Shown here piece after piece: positions 19,701 to 34,700 of a DNA stretch of 64,000 bases (the first letter of the stretch is position 1; every line of letters starts with the position of its first letter). This DNA comes from Pocillopora damicornis (Eukaryota). The position numbers are program-made. Where the stretch lies: NCBI RefSeq assembly GCF_003704095.1, contig NW_020846522.1, positions 62,001-126,000 of the forward strand, given 5' to 3'.

Positions 19701-22700
19701 CGAGCCTTTCAAAACATCATGAGTCAACCATGGATTAAAAACTGCCCGAGCATTACGTGCAATTTTTGGTTTACATATTTACTATGAACAAAATCACTTC
19801 GATCGCAAATTTGTAGGTAGTCGAGGTACATTACTCGAAACAATGACTTTTAAAACTTTGGAAAATCATTTCTATCCTGTTGCAATAAAATAAAGTTAGA
19901 AGCTAATAGGCGTTTTAGGTTCGGTCAGACCTAGAACCTATTGTTATCTTTGACGTAGGGAGTGGCCGCAAAAAACGTTGCCGAGGTCGAGAACACTTGC
20001 TACTGAGCACTCAGTGATGGTTAAGGGAATGTGGCGGACGGAGTGTCTTCATGCACGGCATGAAATTATAGATTTACGAATCCGTAAAGATGCTGTAAAG
20101 TAAGCGTTAAGATCGTCTTTACGCGTCTTTACGAACTTCTCTACACTTTCGTAAAGAATGTCTTTACGCATATGATGTACTCTAAGGACAATAGCTATCT
20201 ACAACAGGATTTTAAAGCTCCCTCGCCTCCGTTTCACCTTGGGGGGGGGGGAGAGGGTGTGGCTACGCGTAGATTTCTGTAGAGACTGAGAATAAACTAA
20301 CTAGGTCACAAACCTGAGTATGAGAATTTACCAACATTCAAGTGCTAACTGACTGGAAAAAAAGTAACACAAGGAACAGAGAACAATTTCCTTCCCCTTG
20401 AATAAGAAGTCATCACATTATTATGACTGTTTTGTTAAGAGAGGTCTTTGATATCTTAAGACACGTTGGACACAGGGATAGTTTGGCTGGTTCGATCATA
20501 AGGCAAATACGAGGACAATCAGCTGCGTTTTCTATCGAGTTTAGTCCTCATCAAACCTATAAGGGCATAAGTTGAGTGACAGGTGAAATACATCTGAGAC
20601 ATTGAAGAGGCGTTAGACTCCTATCCCAGCTAGATGTTACTAACAAACGACACCGAATTTGAATGCTCGATTTAATAAATAATTCAGCCTGAGGTCGCAC
20701 AGTTTTGCAAGTTGAATATATCAAACACAGCCCATTTAAATGTTGTTGTAAGGAAATGGGGGTAGTCGGTGTATTTCTTGGAATGCACACGCTGGAGTAG
20801 TCTTCGTATTTAAGGAAACATCTGTTAACTAAATGTTTTTCATTTCAAAGTCACTTGGTACTAAAAGATTCCCAGGAGCATCCAGCCCGTATTTAAGCCA
20901 GGCAGCTAAATCTTTGACGATTAGATTTTCATTCGAACTTCCAATTTAGTTTTCAAAATAATAAAAATATAGACATTTTCACTTATTCTTGATTTACTAG
21001 AATATCCATTAAGACACATTTGTGCAGTTGGGTTGAGGTACTGATATTCTCAGAATTCCTATCGTAACATCCATGCAGCTTATATAACTTTTGCTGTCTA
21101 GGTCGTCCTTGTCAAATTCGCCAGGCAGATAAAACTCAAACGTGCTAAACCATCTTTAAAATTTAGCCTACCAGTGATATGGAGGATCAATCTTTATGAA
21201 TTCGTTCAGATCAAACAACTCATTTGCAAAGAGACATCAAAGTTTAAATGGTCTAGAATCGCGGCCTCGGATAGACTTCTTTTTAACAACCTTTCTTTGA
21301 AATGTTTAAGCTCTCAAGAAAAACAATTACATTTTTTTTTTCAGGTTTTTTTTTCTTTCTTTTTAATCTTAATTTTGTTTCTACTTAGAATCAAAAAGTG
21401 ATTGCTCAATGTTGGTTTTTACGTATTCTGGCCTCATTTTGTCACGCACTGTTTCATTTTCAGGCGTTTTAACTTTCGGTTTCCTCTGATTAAACAAGTT
21501 CGTGACCCGATGGTTATTATTTTACATGTAACCCAGGTAACTGCCGAGAGTCTGCCGAAATGCTAATTTTACATAGCAACATCAACCTCTTGAGAAAGTC
21601 GATTAGAGAGAAAACAGAGCAAATTGAAAGTAATTAGCACACAGCGTAGTTAGCGGTTTGTTTCGTTGTTCTTGCTTTGATCTCGCCTGGCAAAGAGAAG
21701 TAAGAGAATAACTGTTTTGAATAAAAAACACGTATCGAAAGAGAAGTGTGCTACCGCTTCCGGTCTGTCGCTTATTTAGATTAGGGGGGTTCGCCCCTGA
21801 CGTATATCACAGCGGAAGCATGTAAGAAAGTGCTTGCGAAGCTGAAAGCAGTCATGTTTGTTACTACAGTTTAATACAATTTTTGTCGTCTTGCCACAGG
21901 GAAACAGACGCTAAAGGCTCAAAATTGACATGGTAGTGATCATTAAGATGAAGGGTCTTCCCTGGGAGGCTACGGCCCGAGAAATTAGGCAATTTTACCG
22001 AGGGTTGGAAATAAGCGAGGATGATATTCATTTAGCTCCAAGTCAAGAAGGGAAGGCATCTGGATTTGCATTTGCATGCTTCAAAAAGGATGATGAGGCG
22101 AGGAAGGCTATGTACAGGAATGGAAATTACGTTGGAAAACGATACATAGAGCTCGTTCTAAGCAGCCAATCGGAAATGGATAAAATTTTGAGTGAGGGCG
22201 TACGATTTCGCCGATTTGAAGGAGAGCGACCGCCTATGAAAGACATCAAATCCCAGACCGAAATTAAATTGAGATCGAATGGTGTGAAAGAGAGTTCAAG
22301 GAGTAGCCGAGATACTCCTCGGCGATCAAGGAGTCGAAGTCCAATTCGAAAAAACAGTAATGTTGATGGTTCTAAAAGTCAGAGGGACCATGGTGCTTCG
22401 AACCATGTGAATGAGCGACGCGAAGCCAAGAAGTTCAGTGAACGTAGTAGTTTGCGAATCGTAAACGGGAGAGGTGTTAATGGACTGTCAACAAAACGAG
22501 ACGAACAAGACCGGAGGGGACGGGATAAGGAAAAGAGGAGGGATCTTGTCAAAAATGTTAATCGACGACGTTCACGAAGTTACAGCAGAGATAGGGAGGG
22601 AAAGGGAACCCGACGTGAGACCTCTTTTGCCAATGGAACGCGTGAAGTAACGAATGGTTTTATAAGTATTCCCATGAGCAGATTAAATCGAGGTCGCCAT

Positions 22701-31700: not shown

Positions 31701-34700
31701 AGATCGTGAAACTATACAAACTATGTTTGCAAACCTTGCTTTCGTCTCGCTTCTCATCTCACTGGGAGTAGAAGCATTCAGATTTGATGAGGACTTCTTC
31801 ATCTTTCACGGGAATTTCACGGATCGTATGTAGATTCTTTGCAGTCAAAGCTTTGATAAGCCACCTTCCTGCAGTGATCTGCTCGGTAAAATTATGGACG
31901 CGATCAAAACATCACCAAGCAACCATGTAACAATTGCTTTCCTCTAAAATTTCTCCGAGGAAGATGTAGCTTTTACTTCTTACGCACTACGATCTATGTA
32001 CAAGAGTATTCAGGCACAAGCTCGCGGTAAATTCATTCAGCTAGATCTCGAGATTCTACAGCTTTAGACTACAACTACGATCGCCACTTCGTCCTGATAC
32101 AACAATTTCCCTCCTTTGTCGGGAGGTGAAGGGCACTTTTTTTCTCCTGTTACACATGCGCACTTCTTGTCGTTTCCCGGTTCGCCATCTTGTGTTTCCA
32201 AGTGAACTAAATGAGCGAATCCAAAGGCGTCTGTATTCATCGCAGCACATGTTTATTCGTTTCTCTGACCTCTGACAAATATACTGGATTGTGCAGCTTA
32301 CTCTGATGTTGTTTTAGCGCTGTTGTTTTCTGTATAATTGGACAGACTGTAAGTTTTGTTGCATTCACGTGGTTTGATTAAGGAAGGAATTAAGGCTTAA
32401 CGTTTGTAGTTTTGTGTTGTTGGTCGCTAAGAAAAGGGCTTGGTATCCTTAATTGTCGTTTTTCTATCTCTCTTTCGAATTTTAGACTCTGAAATGTTGC
32501 AGTCTAGATCTAAACCCAGTTGTCCGTGTGTTTGAAGCTATAGAACTTCCATATTAGTAGTTCCAAATTGTACTGACAATAACAACCAGACCTATTTGCA
32601 CCACTTGCCAAGTATCCAAAAGGAAGAAAAGTATACTATTGTATGTTAACCTTTATAACAGTTTCCACATAAAAGTGTTGCTTGTAATGACAGGATATTT
32701 AAAGCTCCAAGATTTTTGACATTTTAACCCCCAAGGTGTGGTTGGGTTTTAATTTTTTAATTTCTCCTCGTAGCAAAAATATTAAATCAAACATTAAGGT
32801 CATGAGGACAGAGGAAATGATCATCAATTTAAGGAGCTGCTGGTTGTCAAATGAATTCAAACTGTCAGTACCAGAGGGGATGTAAAGAGAACCTTGTAGT
32901 GAATATGAATAATAATGCCAGAGTGTAAGAGGTTAAACAAAAGAGTGAATAGTCTTCTGTTTACAAACAATTGATGAGGTGTTGGAAATGTTTATAAATG
33001 ATTCCACCACCTGACTGGATCTTAAAAATTAGATAATAATGATCCAGTCAAGAATATAACCAGTAGCTTGGGCTGCAGTTCTTTTCTGTTTCATTTCATA
33101 TTTGCTGTGCAAACATACAAACAGCTCCATATTGCACTACACCCATGTGGAACTCTTGTTCAGGCCACACTTTTCAAATGTGGCTGAAAGGAAAAGGATG
33201 AGATTGTTCTACAATCTGTAGAAACGTTTTGTAATTTAATTTTATATCTTTTTATTTCAAAATTACCATGACCAGTAATTTGTATCTGTAATTACTCTAC
33301 TTTGTCTAGATATTCTCCAAATATACACTGAATTGAAATATGGCGTCTAATTTGAATTGTAATTGTTCTGGAGTGATTAGCTTCATCTTCAGGTGGAAAC
33401 ACAAAAGGATCATCACATGTTTGAGAGGCTAGTCAGTCCAGAACGATGGCATTCAAATTACACACCATATTTCAATTCAGTGTATTGTCTTTGTTATAAT
33501 AGTTGTTGTCTGTCAAGACCTCTATGGAATTTTAGATTGTTTTTTTTTTCTTGTAGAGACACCCTCTGACATCCTGGAACTTTAATGCGAAGAAGGGGAG
33601 GTCCTCCCCCATGGGGATCACGCAACAGGTTGCATCCTCCCTCACCACCACCACCACCTGAGTATCATGACAGGTTTGATCACCCACCACCTCCTCCCTC
33701 AGGAAGGGCACCACCTAGATTTTGGGATGATCCACATTTATCAAGACCTCCTCCTTGGATAAGAGACAAGTTTGATGGTCCACCCAGACATCCACCATGG
33801 GCAGATGATTACTCTCCTCCACAACACTGCCCGCCACCTGGCTGGTCAGCTCCTCAGGGCCCACGTCCTCCTTCATTTATTGATGATGGTCCATCCAGAA
33901 CCCCCCCATGGAAAAGTGACTCGCCCCCACATCATCCACCCCTTCCTCTATTCAATGATGATGATCCTCAAAGAACCCCACCATGGAAAAGTGACTCTCC
34001 ACCTCATCCTGCTCCACGATCTTCATTTGCTGATGATGACTTTGATATTCCTCCTCCTTATCTTCCAAATAGACCACCTAGAGGAAGAAGGAGAGCTGGA
34101 CGTGGTTGCATTCCTGGTAGAGGATCACTCAGTGGAAGGGGTGAGGCTCCTAAAAGAAGAGCTATGATTACAAGAGGTACAAATCAAGCAAAGGGTGCCA
34201 TGATGAGGGGTGTAAATAATAGAAGAGAGTGTTCTCCAGCCCCAAGGGGTAGGGGTGCAGCCATTACAACTAGGGGAGCTCAAAGTGCAGCAAGGGGTAT
34301 GCCTATCACACGAGGACAGACTAGGGGCAGAACCAATGGATCTAGAGGAGCAGCAAGGGGTACTCTTGTATATAGAGGAGGAATATGTGTCTCCAATATT
34401 AATGGTAATGCAAACAGTAAAGAGGATATATCAGGACTGTCAGATGATACTAGCAAAGGATTGGCCAAATGGCTGAATGCTATCAGGAATGGGAAGTTAG
34501 ATACAGAATGCCAAACCTCAACAGAGGCTCCTGGAAACAACATTAATGCAGCATTGCCACAGAAACAAGATTTTCAATCAACAAATACAGATGCAAAGAC
34601 TGGAAAAGGGAATAATGTGAATAACTATGGTGCAAAGGACAAGCAAAAGACACAGCCTAGTGTTGTCAAAGGTACTTGAACAATAATTAGTGCAAAAACA

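What the first reader, a model, noticed from the sequence alone, without database searches (positions are those of the whole stretch)
21930..31802. RBM12-like and CIBAR1 are adjacent tail-to-tail as in human; ESRP and CHMP4 are in the same block
Seen: RBM12-like (+) and CIBAR1 (-) converge with no gene detected between them; CHMP4 is ~8 kb upstream and ESRP ~17 kb beyond CIBAR1. Recalled: human CIBAR1 and RBM12B are convergent neighbours at 8q22.1 with ESRP1 in the same band, CHMP4C is at 8q21, RBM12 and CHMP4B are both at 20q11, and CIBAR2 and ESRP2 are on 16q. Inference: microsynteny kept since the cnidarian-bilaterian ancestor, perhaps constrained by shared 3' ends or regulation. No copine gene is present, so the vertebrate RBM12/CPNE1 shared-promoter arrangement may be derived.
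[Added by the scan's program, not by the reader: the finding's places include an assembly gap (unread letters, written N; its length is only estimated) at 31519 to 31536. Whether the letters on both sides are continuous or in frame is not known: test that first.]
Basis: partly seen in the sequence, partly recalled or inferred. Interest (0 to 1): 0.65.

Follow-up and report, generated by a model that had tools for sequence, protein, structure and literature searches.

The report
Coral RBM12-like and CIBAR tail-to-tail pair
In this coral genome piece an RBM12-type RNA-binding gene and the cilium gene CIBAR/FAM92 lie tail to tail just as their relatives are neighbours on human chromosome 8, which is most likely an inherited gene neighbourhood of an already known kind, not a new mechanism.

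Summary
A single-exon 520-aa three-RRM gene (21930-23492, +) and a six-exon FAM92/CIBAR gene (31802-27653, -) converge. Their stop codons are 4,160 nt apart, and no protein family, Rfam family or tRNA was detected between them. The 18-N gap (31519-31536) lies in CIBAR intron 1, so reading frame is not at issue.

The RRM protein belongs to the RBM12/12B family by four lines of evidence: its C-terminal RRM, its domain layout, a domain tree and the Atlas names.

CHMP4-type Snf7 exons (10.8-12.5 kb) and ESRP exons (52.6-58.8 kb) are present.

Gene lists in two clinical papers give human FAM92A1 and RBM12B as consecutive genes. The pair is also adjacent in Oculina (consecutive locus tags) and lies on a scaffold of the same length in Orbicella.

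Conservation since the cnidarian-bilaterian ancestor is therefore plausible, but it is shown for only two lineages. Constraint through shared 3' ends has no support. ESRP and CHMP4 are linked in human only at chromosome-arm scale.

This is probably a new example of a known kind, and of modest interest.

The parts
10764..12492 (+). CHMP4/Snf7-type gene, minimum extent: three detected exons at 10764-10889, 11008-11187 and 12379-12492. The C-terminal exon was not located.
   Evidence: Pfam Snf7 profile positions 1-42, 42-101 and 102-139. PDB best hits are fly GH13992p at 8.6e-22, CHMP4B at 3e-12 and yeast Snf7.
16485..17201 (-). 6-phosphogluconolactonase (PGLS)-like single-exon ORF of 238 aa, head to head with the RBM12-like gene. 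It intervenes between CHMP4 and RBM12-like.
   Evidence: Pfam Glucosamine_iso E 4.8e-68, profile 2-225 of 225. ORF.
21930..23492 (+). RBM12/12B-family gene with a single-exon CDS of 520 aa. RRM1 is at aa 1-92, RRM2 at about aa 251-355 and RRM3 at aa 431-520.
   Evidence: (RRM3 matches only RBM12 chains: 2cqp 8e-18, 2ek1 1e-17).
23493..27652 (.). Spacer of 4,160 nt between the two stop codons, GC 0.36. It must hold both 3' UTRs. No gene was detected.
   Evidence: Pfam; Rfam; tRNA; poly(A) hexamers; no long repeats; Atlas: no hit for ORF 24601-24945.
27653..31802 (-). CIBAR/FAM92 gene with six coding exons: 31802-31735, 30953-30719, 30134-29964, 29621-29517, 29074-28961 and 27838-27653 (stop included). 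The model gives 292 aa.
   Evidence: Pfam FAM92 on exons 2 and 3. PDB CIBAR1 chains 9uhd 1.5e-6 and 8ceg. tblastn of P0066, P0069 and P0083. Splice-site and phase arithmetic.
31519..31536 (.). Assembly gap (18 N) inside CIBAR intron 1 (31734-30954). Non-coding; not filled.
35757..41322 (+). dsRBD gene (HYL1/DRB-like) between CIBAR and ESRP, with dsrm-bearing segments at 35757-36131 and 40738-41322. The gene bounds were not determined, and an N gap lies inside at 36443-36542.
   Evidence: Pfam dsrm 1e-4 and 2.1e-11. PDB best hits are plant DRB4, HYL1 and fly R2D2.
52616..58753 (+). ESRP-like gene, firm part, with exon matches at 52616-52741, 55901-56050, 56446-56589, 57019-57093, 57537-57617, 57779-58213 and 58478-58753. 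A tentative first exon lies outside this span at 48749-48871.
   Evidence: tblastn with the named fish ESRP1 P0063, including its non-RRM N-terminal region at 40-50% identity. Pfam RRM_1 was weak.

Best explanation
The window comes from a stony coral. It carries the single coral member of the RBM12/RBM12B family and the single CIBAR (FAM92) gene as immediate, convergently transcribed neighbours.

The most likely reading is that this adjacency already existed in the cnidarian-bilaterian ancestor. It was then carried along passively in slowly rearranging lineages: stony corals on one side and the vertebrate 8q22-type paralogon (CIBAR1-RBM12B) on the other. In this reading the pair survives because the spacer is short, so it offers few break sites, and because both genes sit in a conserved linkage group. 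It does not survive because the two 3' ends need each other.

CHMP4 and ESRP belong to the same ancestral linkage group and are close here, but in human they are linked only at chromosome-arm scale.

Shown: the gene identities, the arrangement in the window, adjacency in a second coral, and adjacency in human gene lists. Inferred: common descent of the adjacency, its passive retention, and the human orientation.
For: RBM12-family membership:
- The C-terminal RRM matches only RBM12 chains in the PDB (2cqp 8.1e-18, about half the residues identical over 77 aa; 2ek1 1.1e-17).
- 78 of the 150 best representatives from a scan of 1.84 billion proteins share the layout with an RRM at residue 1 and an RRM at the very C-terminus. 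Both named RBM12B-like proteins (tick P0055, frog P0059) share it too. The eight named hnRNP F/H-type and ESRP1 hits do not.
- Two such representatives map colinearly onto the RBM12 RRM structures.
- In a domain NJ tree the coral RRM3 groups with their C-terminal RRMs (87% of 200 bootstraps) and RRM1 with their N-terminal RRMs (52%). Both are apart from the hnRNP F/H and ESRP RRMs.
- The five best named Atlas cluster sets are RBM12, an unnamed RRM set, 12Bb, 12B and 12Bb, at 0.91-0.93.
- NCBI names the Orbicella ortholog 'RNA-binding protein 12B-like'.

CIBAR.

Adjacency elsewhere:
- Oculina patagonica ACROYT_G013326 (RRM gene) and ACROYT_G013325 (FAM92) are on one 64,437,903-bp contig.
- The Orbicella pair both lie on a contig of 1,957,531 bp. 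These are 2 of the 2 species named in both hit lists.
- Human order '...TRIQK, FAM92A1, RBM12B, TMEM67...', and the same order. Pig.

Background: nearly 600 ancient microsyntenic pairs are known, and randomised gene order gives 0.015 pairs under the published four-lineage criterion (abstract and section 4 of PMC3514665).
Against: - Only two lineages (stony corals, mammals) are documented. No sea anemone, hydrozoan, placozoan, amphioxus, mollusc or fish gene order could be examined.
- The alignment search for FAM92 reached only corals and insects (47 hits), so the two sea-anemone RRM-gene hits could not be paired.
- Whole-protein scores to named hnRNP H3 and F (about 1e-27) are as good as those to the named RBM12B-like proteins (2.7e-25, 5.2e-18).
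- The coral RRM3 scores 27 bits against the tick and frog 12B-like C-terminal RRMs but 37 bits against an hnRNP H3 RRM.
- NCBI calls the Actinia ortholog 'ESRP1-like'.
- The coral protein has three RRMs in 520 aa. The two representatives that map colinearly onto the RBM12 RRM structures have five in 872-964 aa.
- Bootstrap support for the N-terminal RRM group is only 52%.
- Convergent pairs are the class least expected to be held together. Conserved pairs are enriched for head-to-head orientation, and orientation is fully conserved in only 15-25% of the pairs in other orientations.
- The human orientation is recalled, not checked.
Confidence: 0.6

Rival explanations
1. Chance juxtaposition. 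Both genes stay in the same ancestral linkage group, where gene order is otherwise scrambled, and they came to lie side by side independently in corals and in vertebrates.
For: Only two lineages are documented. The published criterion asks for four lineages precisely because fewer are not safe against chance. The first stage scanned many windows, so a few chance pairs are expected genome-wide; my own rough estimate is a few tens if order within a linkage group of about 1,000 genes is random. There is no sign of any functional tie between the genes in the spacer.
Against: For one given pair the chance of adjacency within such a group is of the order of 0.2-0.4% (my estimate). The adjacency is immediate in both lineages. 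The orientation is the same if my recall of the human locus is right. Truly conserved pairs, nearly 600, outnumber the expected chance pairs.
Confidence: 0.2
2. Selective constraint on the pair. The idea is that the two genes depend on each other's 3' ends (overlapping UTRs, antisense or termination interplay), or share a regulatory landscape, for instance enhancers of ESRP lodged in bystander neighbours.
For: The spacer is short (4,160 nt) and must hold two UTRs. Spliced CIBAR-encoding contigs of related corals reach 2.6 kb for an 885-nt CDS, so UTRs of more than 1 kb exist. Regulatory blocks around developmental regulators are a documented cause of conserved microsynteny (abstract of PMC3514665).
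Against: There is no evidence of overlap. The nearest poly(A) hexamers (66 and 345 nt after the CIBAR stop; 939 and 1,637 nt after the RBM12-like stop) would leave 2.2-3.2 kb between the ends. The hexamers are also at chance density and so decide nothing. No Rfam family or conserved structure was found. In the human gene lists ESRP1 is six or seven genes away from RBM12B. No expression data and no cross-species alignment of the spacer were available.
Confidence: 0.12
3. The RRM gene is not an RBM12/12B ortholog. It would be another member of the hnRNP F/H-ESRP-GRSF1 type RRM group, in which case the resemblance to the human pair is only nominal.
For: RRM1 has its best solved match in hnRNP H (6dhs; the 84 bits are summed over two stretches) ahead of RBM12 1wel at 2.5e-10. 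Whole-protein scores to hnRNP H3/F equal those to the named 12B-like proteins. The Actinia ortholog is named 'ESRP1-like'. The protein has only three RRMs.
Against: The C-terminal RRM matches only RBM12 in the PDB. The RRM-at-both-ends layout is shared with 78 of the 150 best representatives and with both named 12B-like proteins, but with none of the named hnRNP or ESRP hits. The domain tree and Atlas names agree. A separate ESRP gene lies in the same window. PMC2568002 notes that RBM12 and RBM12B resemble each other mainly at the two ends, which are the parts conserved here.
Confidence: 0.07

Closest known systems
Human FAM92A1 (CIBAR1) - RBM12B neighbour pair at 8q22.1
   Same: The same two gene families are immediate neighbours (gene lists in PMC6570965 and PMC11476383). 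Tail-to-tail orientation and a coding region without introns in RBM12B are as I recall them.
   Different: The coral has one RBM12-family gene with three RRMs in 520 aa, and its C-terminal RRM is nearer to RBM12 than to the named 12B-like proteins. The human orientation and distances were not checked with a tool.
Conserved ancient microsyntenic pairs (CAMPs; Irimia et al. 2012, PMC3514665)
   Same: Unrelated genes are adjacent in distant animals, and the spacer is short.
   Different: Membership needs linkage in four or more lineages, and only two are shown here. CAMPs are enriched for head-to-head pairs (54.8% in human), whereas this pair is tail to tail. The main text does not name FAM92, RBM12 or ESRP (0 occurrences each), and the supplementary tables could not be read.
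CPNE1-RBM12 promoter-sharing pair (PMC2568002)
   Same: It involves the same RRM gene family and a conserved neighbour relation.
   Different: That pair shares its 5' exons and promoter, and it is traced only from human to zebrafish. No Copine or C2 family was found in any of the 505 translated segments of this window. The gene head to head with the coral RRM gene is PGLS-like.
Ancestral metazoan linkage groups (macrosynteny between cnidarians and vertebrates)
   Same: CHMP4, RBM12, CIBAR and ESRP relatives lying on the same human chromosome arms (8q, 20q, 16q; recalled) is what macrosynteny predicts.
   Different: Macrosynteny does not preserve order. Here four families lie within about 48 kb, and two of them are immediately adjacent.

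Membership tests
RBM12/RBM12B family | C-terminal RRM at the very end of the protein, similar to the RBM12 C-terminal RRM | tested here: met
   aa 438-519 match only RBM12 chains in the PDB (2cqp 8.1e-18, 2ek1 1.1e-17). This RRM groups with the C-terminal RRMs of two RBM12-mapped representatives at 87% bootstrap.
RBM12/RBM12B family | N-terminal RRM starting at residue 1, the conserved first ~90 residues noted in PMC2568002 | tested here: met
   RRM1 is at aa 1-92. The same placement is seen in the tick and frog 12B-like proteins and in 78 of 150 representatives. Tree support is weak, at 52%.
RBM12/RBM12B family | Five RRMs separated by long low-complexity linkers, about 900-1000 aa (the human lengths are recalled) | tested here: not met
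   The coral protein has three RRMs in 520 aa. Its coral and sea-anemone orthologs are 479-537 aa. I read this as a shorter ancestral or reduced form.
RBM12/RBM12B family | Monophyly with RBM12 and RBM12B in a whole-family tree | tested here: inconclusive
   Only a domain-level NJ tree with 10 proteins was built. No named vertebrate RBM12 sequence was available locally, because the listing of cluster members could not be run.
CIBAR/FAM92 BAR-domain family | FAM92 BAR domain | tested here: met
   Pfam FAM92 on exon 2 (E 1.8e-11, above the cut-off) and on exon 3 (E 4e-3, below it). Solved CIBAR1 chains 9uhd and 8ceg match. Orthologs are named CIBAR1-like or FAM92A1-like.
CIBAR/FAM92 BAR-domain family | Binding to Chibby (CBY1) and a role at the ciliary base | not testable with these tools
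   Known from the papers listed, of which I saw only titles and abstracts.
Conserved ancient microsyntenic pair (Irimia 2012 criterion) | [quoted passage not shown] | tested here: inconclusive
   Two lineages only: stony corals (the window, Oculina, Orbicella) and mammals. No eukaryotic genome collection was on hand.
Conserved ancient microsyntenic pair (Irimia 2012 criterion) | The two genes are not paralogues | tested here: met
   One is an RRM protein and the other a BAR-domain protein.
CHMP4 subfamily of Snf7/ESCRT-III | Closest to CHMP4/Shrub/Snf7, not to other CHMP classes | tested here: met
   Exon 11008-11187: all 7 PDB hits are fly GH13992p (including a fusion construct), CHMP4B or yeast Snf7. 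That GH13992p is Shrub is recalled.
ESRP | Non-RRM N-terminal domain followed by three RRMs | tested here: met
   tblastn with the named fish ESRP1: aa 104-166 at 40-50% identity at 52616-52813, and RRM exons at 55.9-58.8 kb at up to 71% identity. The first ~100 residues were not firmly located.

The most novel reading that the evidence does not exclude
The RBM12-CIBAR tail-to-tail pair has been held together for over 600 million years by a functional tie at its 3' ends or by a shared regulatory landscape. The neighbourhood with ESRP, whose RRMs group with the RBM12 N-terminal RRM in the domain tree, would then be the relic of an ancient tandem duplication in this RRM group, with CIBAR caught between.
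Probability: 0.1. Interest if true: 0.55.

Novelty: new member of a known kind. Interest (0 to 1): 0.27.

Why it matters
If the pair proves to be linked in several further lineages, it would add a convergent (3'-3') example to the catalogue of ancient microsyntenic pairs. Convergent pairs are the least understood class, because no shared promoter can explain them. The pair would also fix the coral gene as the pro-ortholog of RBM12 and RBM12B, and it would date the CPNE1-RBM12 promoter sharing to vertebrates. As it stands, it is a useful annotation of a coral locus and a lead for a gene-order survey. It is not a new mechanism.

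Tried and rejected
- A bacterial-type promoter and terminator scan of the spacer gave chance-level counts and is irrelevant to a eukaryote.
- Poly(A) hexamer mapping is uninformative: 12 per strand against roughly 9 that I estimated from base composition, not from a tool.
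- The repeat search of 20-33 kb found no long repeats.
- I tried to extend synteny to sea anemones by searching with an alignment of 12 coral FAM92 proteins. This returned 47 hits, all corals or insects, so the Actinia and Actinostola RRM-gene hits could not be paired.
- Naming the best representatives with the listing of cluster members was not possible (shared database switched off). I did not repeat it.
- I tested whether the dsRBD gene between CIBAR and ESRP is Staufen, which would have added a further 8q/20q family. It is not: the best solved relatives are plant DRB4 and HYL1 and fly R2D2.
- I looked for the virus-like stretch announced by the operators. None of the 505 translated segments (138, 143, 94 and 130) matched a viral Pfam family at E <= 0.01. 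One match, Adeno_E3A, 15 bits against a cut-off of 25.2 at 49475-49630 (E 0.026), looks like chance. I did nothing further with it.
- No contig that I would take for human was met.
- The spliced CIBAR model was tested exon by exon (per-exon Pfam, PDB and tblastn, plus coordinate and phase arithmetic). I left out joining the exons into one sequence, so the model was never searched as a whole.

Full report
**The gap.** The window has four N runs. The one inside the finding, 31519-31536, lies between CIBAR exon 1 (31802-31735) and exon 2 (30953-30719), in intron 1. It interrupts no coding sequence, so frame is not at issue. Its real length stays unknown and I did not fill it.

The join across the gap is credible. 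A 294-aa protein from a 1,065-nt contig (P0066) is too short to be unspliced DNA of this 4.15-kb locus. It matches exon 1 (aa 1-23) and exon 2 (aa 23-102) at 100% identity, in the right order and on the same strand. No duplicated flanks surround the gap.

**What is in the window.** I translated 505 stop-to-stop segments and scanned them against Pfam (138, 143, 94 and 130 segments). Together with tblastn using proteins returned by the searches, this gives the following gene order:

| Gene | Strand | Position | Evidence |
|---|---|---|---|
| Snf7/CHMP4-type gene | + | exons within 10764-12492 | best solved relatives fly GH13992p, human CHMP4B, yeast Snf7 |
| PGLS-like single-exon gene | - | 16485-17201 | E 4.8e-68 |
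| Three-RRM gene | + | 21930-23492 | |
| CIBAR/FAM92 gene | - | 31802-27653 | |
| Gene with two dsRBDs | + | 35757-41322 | |
| ESRP-like gene | + | firm exons 52616-58753 | |
| SIRT5-like exon | - | 63265-63564 | |

The ESRP-like gene may also have a first exon at 48749-48871, but the match is weak (E 0.08). No Rfam family and no tRNA was found anywhere in the window.

**The pair.** The RRM gene has a single-exon CDS of 520 aa. Its coral and sea-anemone orthologs of 479-537 aa cover 99-100% of it, so the ORF is the whole protein.

The CIBAR gene has six coding exons bounded by GT-AG introns. Their lengths (68, 235, 171, 105, 114 and 186 nt) sum to 879 nt, which is 292 codons plus a stop. The model lacks two residues that P0066 and P0067 carry at the exon 3/4 junction, and it agrees there with the Oculina model. 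I tested this model exon by exon only.

The two stop codons are 4,160 nt apart (23493-27652). In this spacer:
- None of 43 short translated segments reached Pfam E <= 0.01.
- The long segments gave only a chance-level hit.
- The largest ORF had no Atlas relative.
- No long repeat was found.

'No gene detected between them' therefore stands, within the reach of these tools.

**Is the RRM gene RBM12-like?**

Evidence for:
- Its C-terminal RRM matches only RBM12 chains among all solved structures (8.1e-18 and 1.1e-17).
- In a scan of 1.84 billion representatives, 2,131 proteins matched at E <= 0.001. Of the 150 best, 78 share its layout with an RRM at residue 1 and an RRM at the very C-terminus.
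- Both named RBM12B-like proteins (tick, frog) share that layout. None of the named hnRNP F/H-type or ESRP1 hits does.
- Two such representatives map colinearly onto the RBM12 RRM structures.
- In a neighbour-joining tree of 36 RRM domains from 10 proteins, the coral RRM3 groups with their C-terminal RRMs (87% of 200 bootstraps) and RRM1 with the N-terminal RRMs (52%). Both are apart from the hnRNP F/H and ESRP domains.
- The nearest named Atlas clusters are RBM12, 12Bb and 12B (0.91-0.93).
- PMC2568002 (passages) reports that human RBM12 and RBM12B resemble each other mainly at the two ends, which fits.

Evidence against:
- Whole-protein scores to named hnRNP H3/F are as good as those to the named 12B-like proteins.
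- The coral RRM3 scores lower against the tick and frog 12B-like proteins (27 bits) than against an hnRNP H3 RRM (37 bits).
- NCBI calls the Actinia ortholog 'ESRP1-like'.
- The protein has three RRMs, where the two RBM12-mapped representatives have five.

I conclude that it is a short member of the RBM12/12B family, nearer to RBM12 than to 12B. It is probably the pro-ortholog of both.

**Synteny.** Within corals, the Oculina patagonica orthologs carry consecutive locus tags (ACROYT_G013326 and G013325) on one contig. The Orbicella orthologs lie on a contig of the same length. These are the only two species named in both hit lists.

For human, two clinical papers list the genes of 8q21.3-q22.1 in order. 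FAM92A1 and RBM12B are consecutive in both (Table 1 of PMC6570965; a table of PMC11476383). The second list reaches ESRP1 six genes further on, and the first also names FSBP in that stretch. A pig study finds FAM92A and RBM12B within one +/-200 kb window.

The human strands and the positions of CHMP4C, CHMP4B, CIBAR2 and ESRP2 are recalled, not checked. RBM12 on chromosome 20 next to CPNE1 is in PMC2568002.

No eukaryotic genome collection was on hand, so no other lineage could be examined. The published criterion for an ancient microsyntenic pair asks for four lineages (section 12 of PMC3514665). Two are shown here.

**Mechanism.** I favour inheritance of the adjacency from the cnidarian-bilaterian ancestor with passive retention (0.6). 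My reasons are that the adjacency is immediate in both lineages, the spacer is short, and truly conserved pairs (nearly 600; abstract) outnumber those I would expect by chance. That expectation is my own rough estimate.

Chance juxtaposition inside a conserved linkage group remains possible (0.2).

Poly(A) hexamers are at about chance density (my estimate), and the nearest ones would leave 2.2-3.2 kb between the transcript ends. Overlap is not excluded, though, because spliced CIBAR contigs of related corals carry up to about 1.7 kb of UTR. Convergent pairs are also the class least enriched among conserved pairs.

**The wider 'block'.** CHMP4 and ESRP are close in the coral, but PGLS and a HYL1-like gene intervene. 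In human, ESRP1 is more than four genes from RBM12B. That part is macrosynteny, which is expected between cnidarians and vertebrates.

**Copine.** No Copine or C2 family appeared in the 505 segments. The gene head to head with the RRM gene is PGLS-like. This agrees with PMC2568002, which found promoter sharing of CPNE1 and RBM12 from human to zebrafish and no evidence of it in Ciona or C. elegans.

**In print?** Five full-text searches pairing RBM12(B), FAM92/CIBAR or ESRP with each other or with synteny terms found only gene lists. None described this pair as conserved. One search listed only 20 of its 52 hits. The main text of PMC3514665 names none of the three families.

**Verdict.** This is probably a new member of a known kind (ancient microsyntenic pairs), of modest interest.

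Noticed in passing
window 35757-41322 (+); also ORF 33585-34679 (+): The dsRBD gene between CIBAR and ESRP has its best solved relatives in plant DRB4 (4.3e-14), HYL1 and fly R2D2, not in Staufen. It looks like the cnidarian 'plant-like' HYL1 homolog described for Nematostella (PMC9098223; title and abstract seen). A proline- and Arg/Gly-rich 364-aa ORF with no Pfam match lies just upstream. Whether it belongs to the same gene is unknown. An N gap (36443-36542) lies inside the gene.
   Followed up: partly
window 16485-17201 (-) and 21930 (+): A PGLS-like single-exon gene lies head to head with the RBM12-like gene, 4.7 kb apart, with an N gap (17306-17405) between them. This is the position that CPNE1 holds relative to RBM12 in vertebrates.
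   Followed up: no
window 29964/29621 (CIBAR exon 3/4 junction): With canonical GT-AG sites the window gives 292 aa, as in the Oculina model. The near-identical P0066 and P0067 carry two more residues there. The six bases just upstream of the acceptor would encode two different residues, so this may be an alternative acceptor or an allelic difference.
   Followed up: partly
window 63265-63564 (-): This is a SIRT5-like exon. All 19 best solved matches are sirtuin-5, at 4e-13 to 4e-12. It lies next to an N gap at 63082-63181.
   Followed up: no
window 18339-18623 (+): There is an isolated sub-threshold match to dynein motor region D4 (AAA_8, E 4e-4, 20 bits against a cut-off of 25.6). No other dynein exon was found nearby. 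It may be a pseudogene scrap or chance.
   Followed up: partly
window 47.5-50.2 kb: This stretch is richer in G+C (0.43 against about 0.37) and has several 90-130-aa ORFs in different frames on the + strand, none with a Pfam family. It holds the tentative first ESRP exon (48749-48871) and the chance-level Adeno_E3A match (49475-49630). It may be the ESRP promoter region.
   Followed up: partly
window 1-9500: No Pfam family was found in any segment of 42 aa or more on either strand, including a 230-aa open frame at 7762-8451. The content of this stretch is unexplained.
   Followed up: partly
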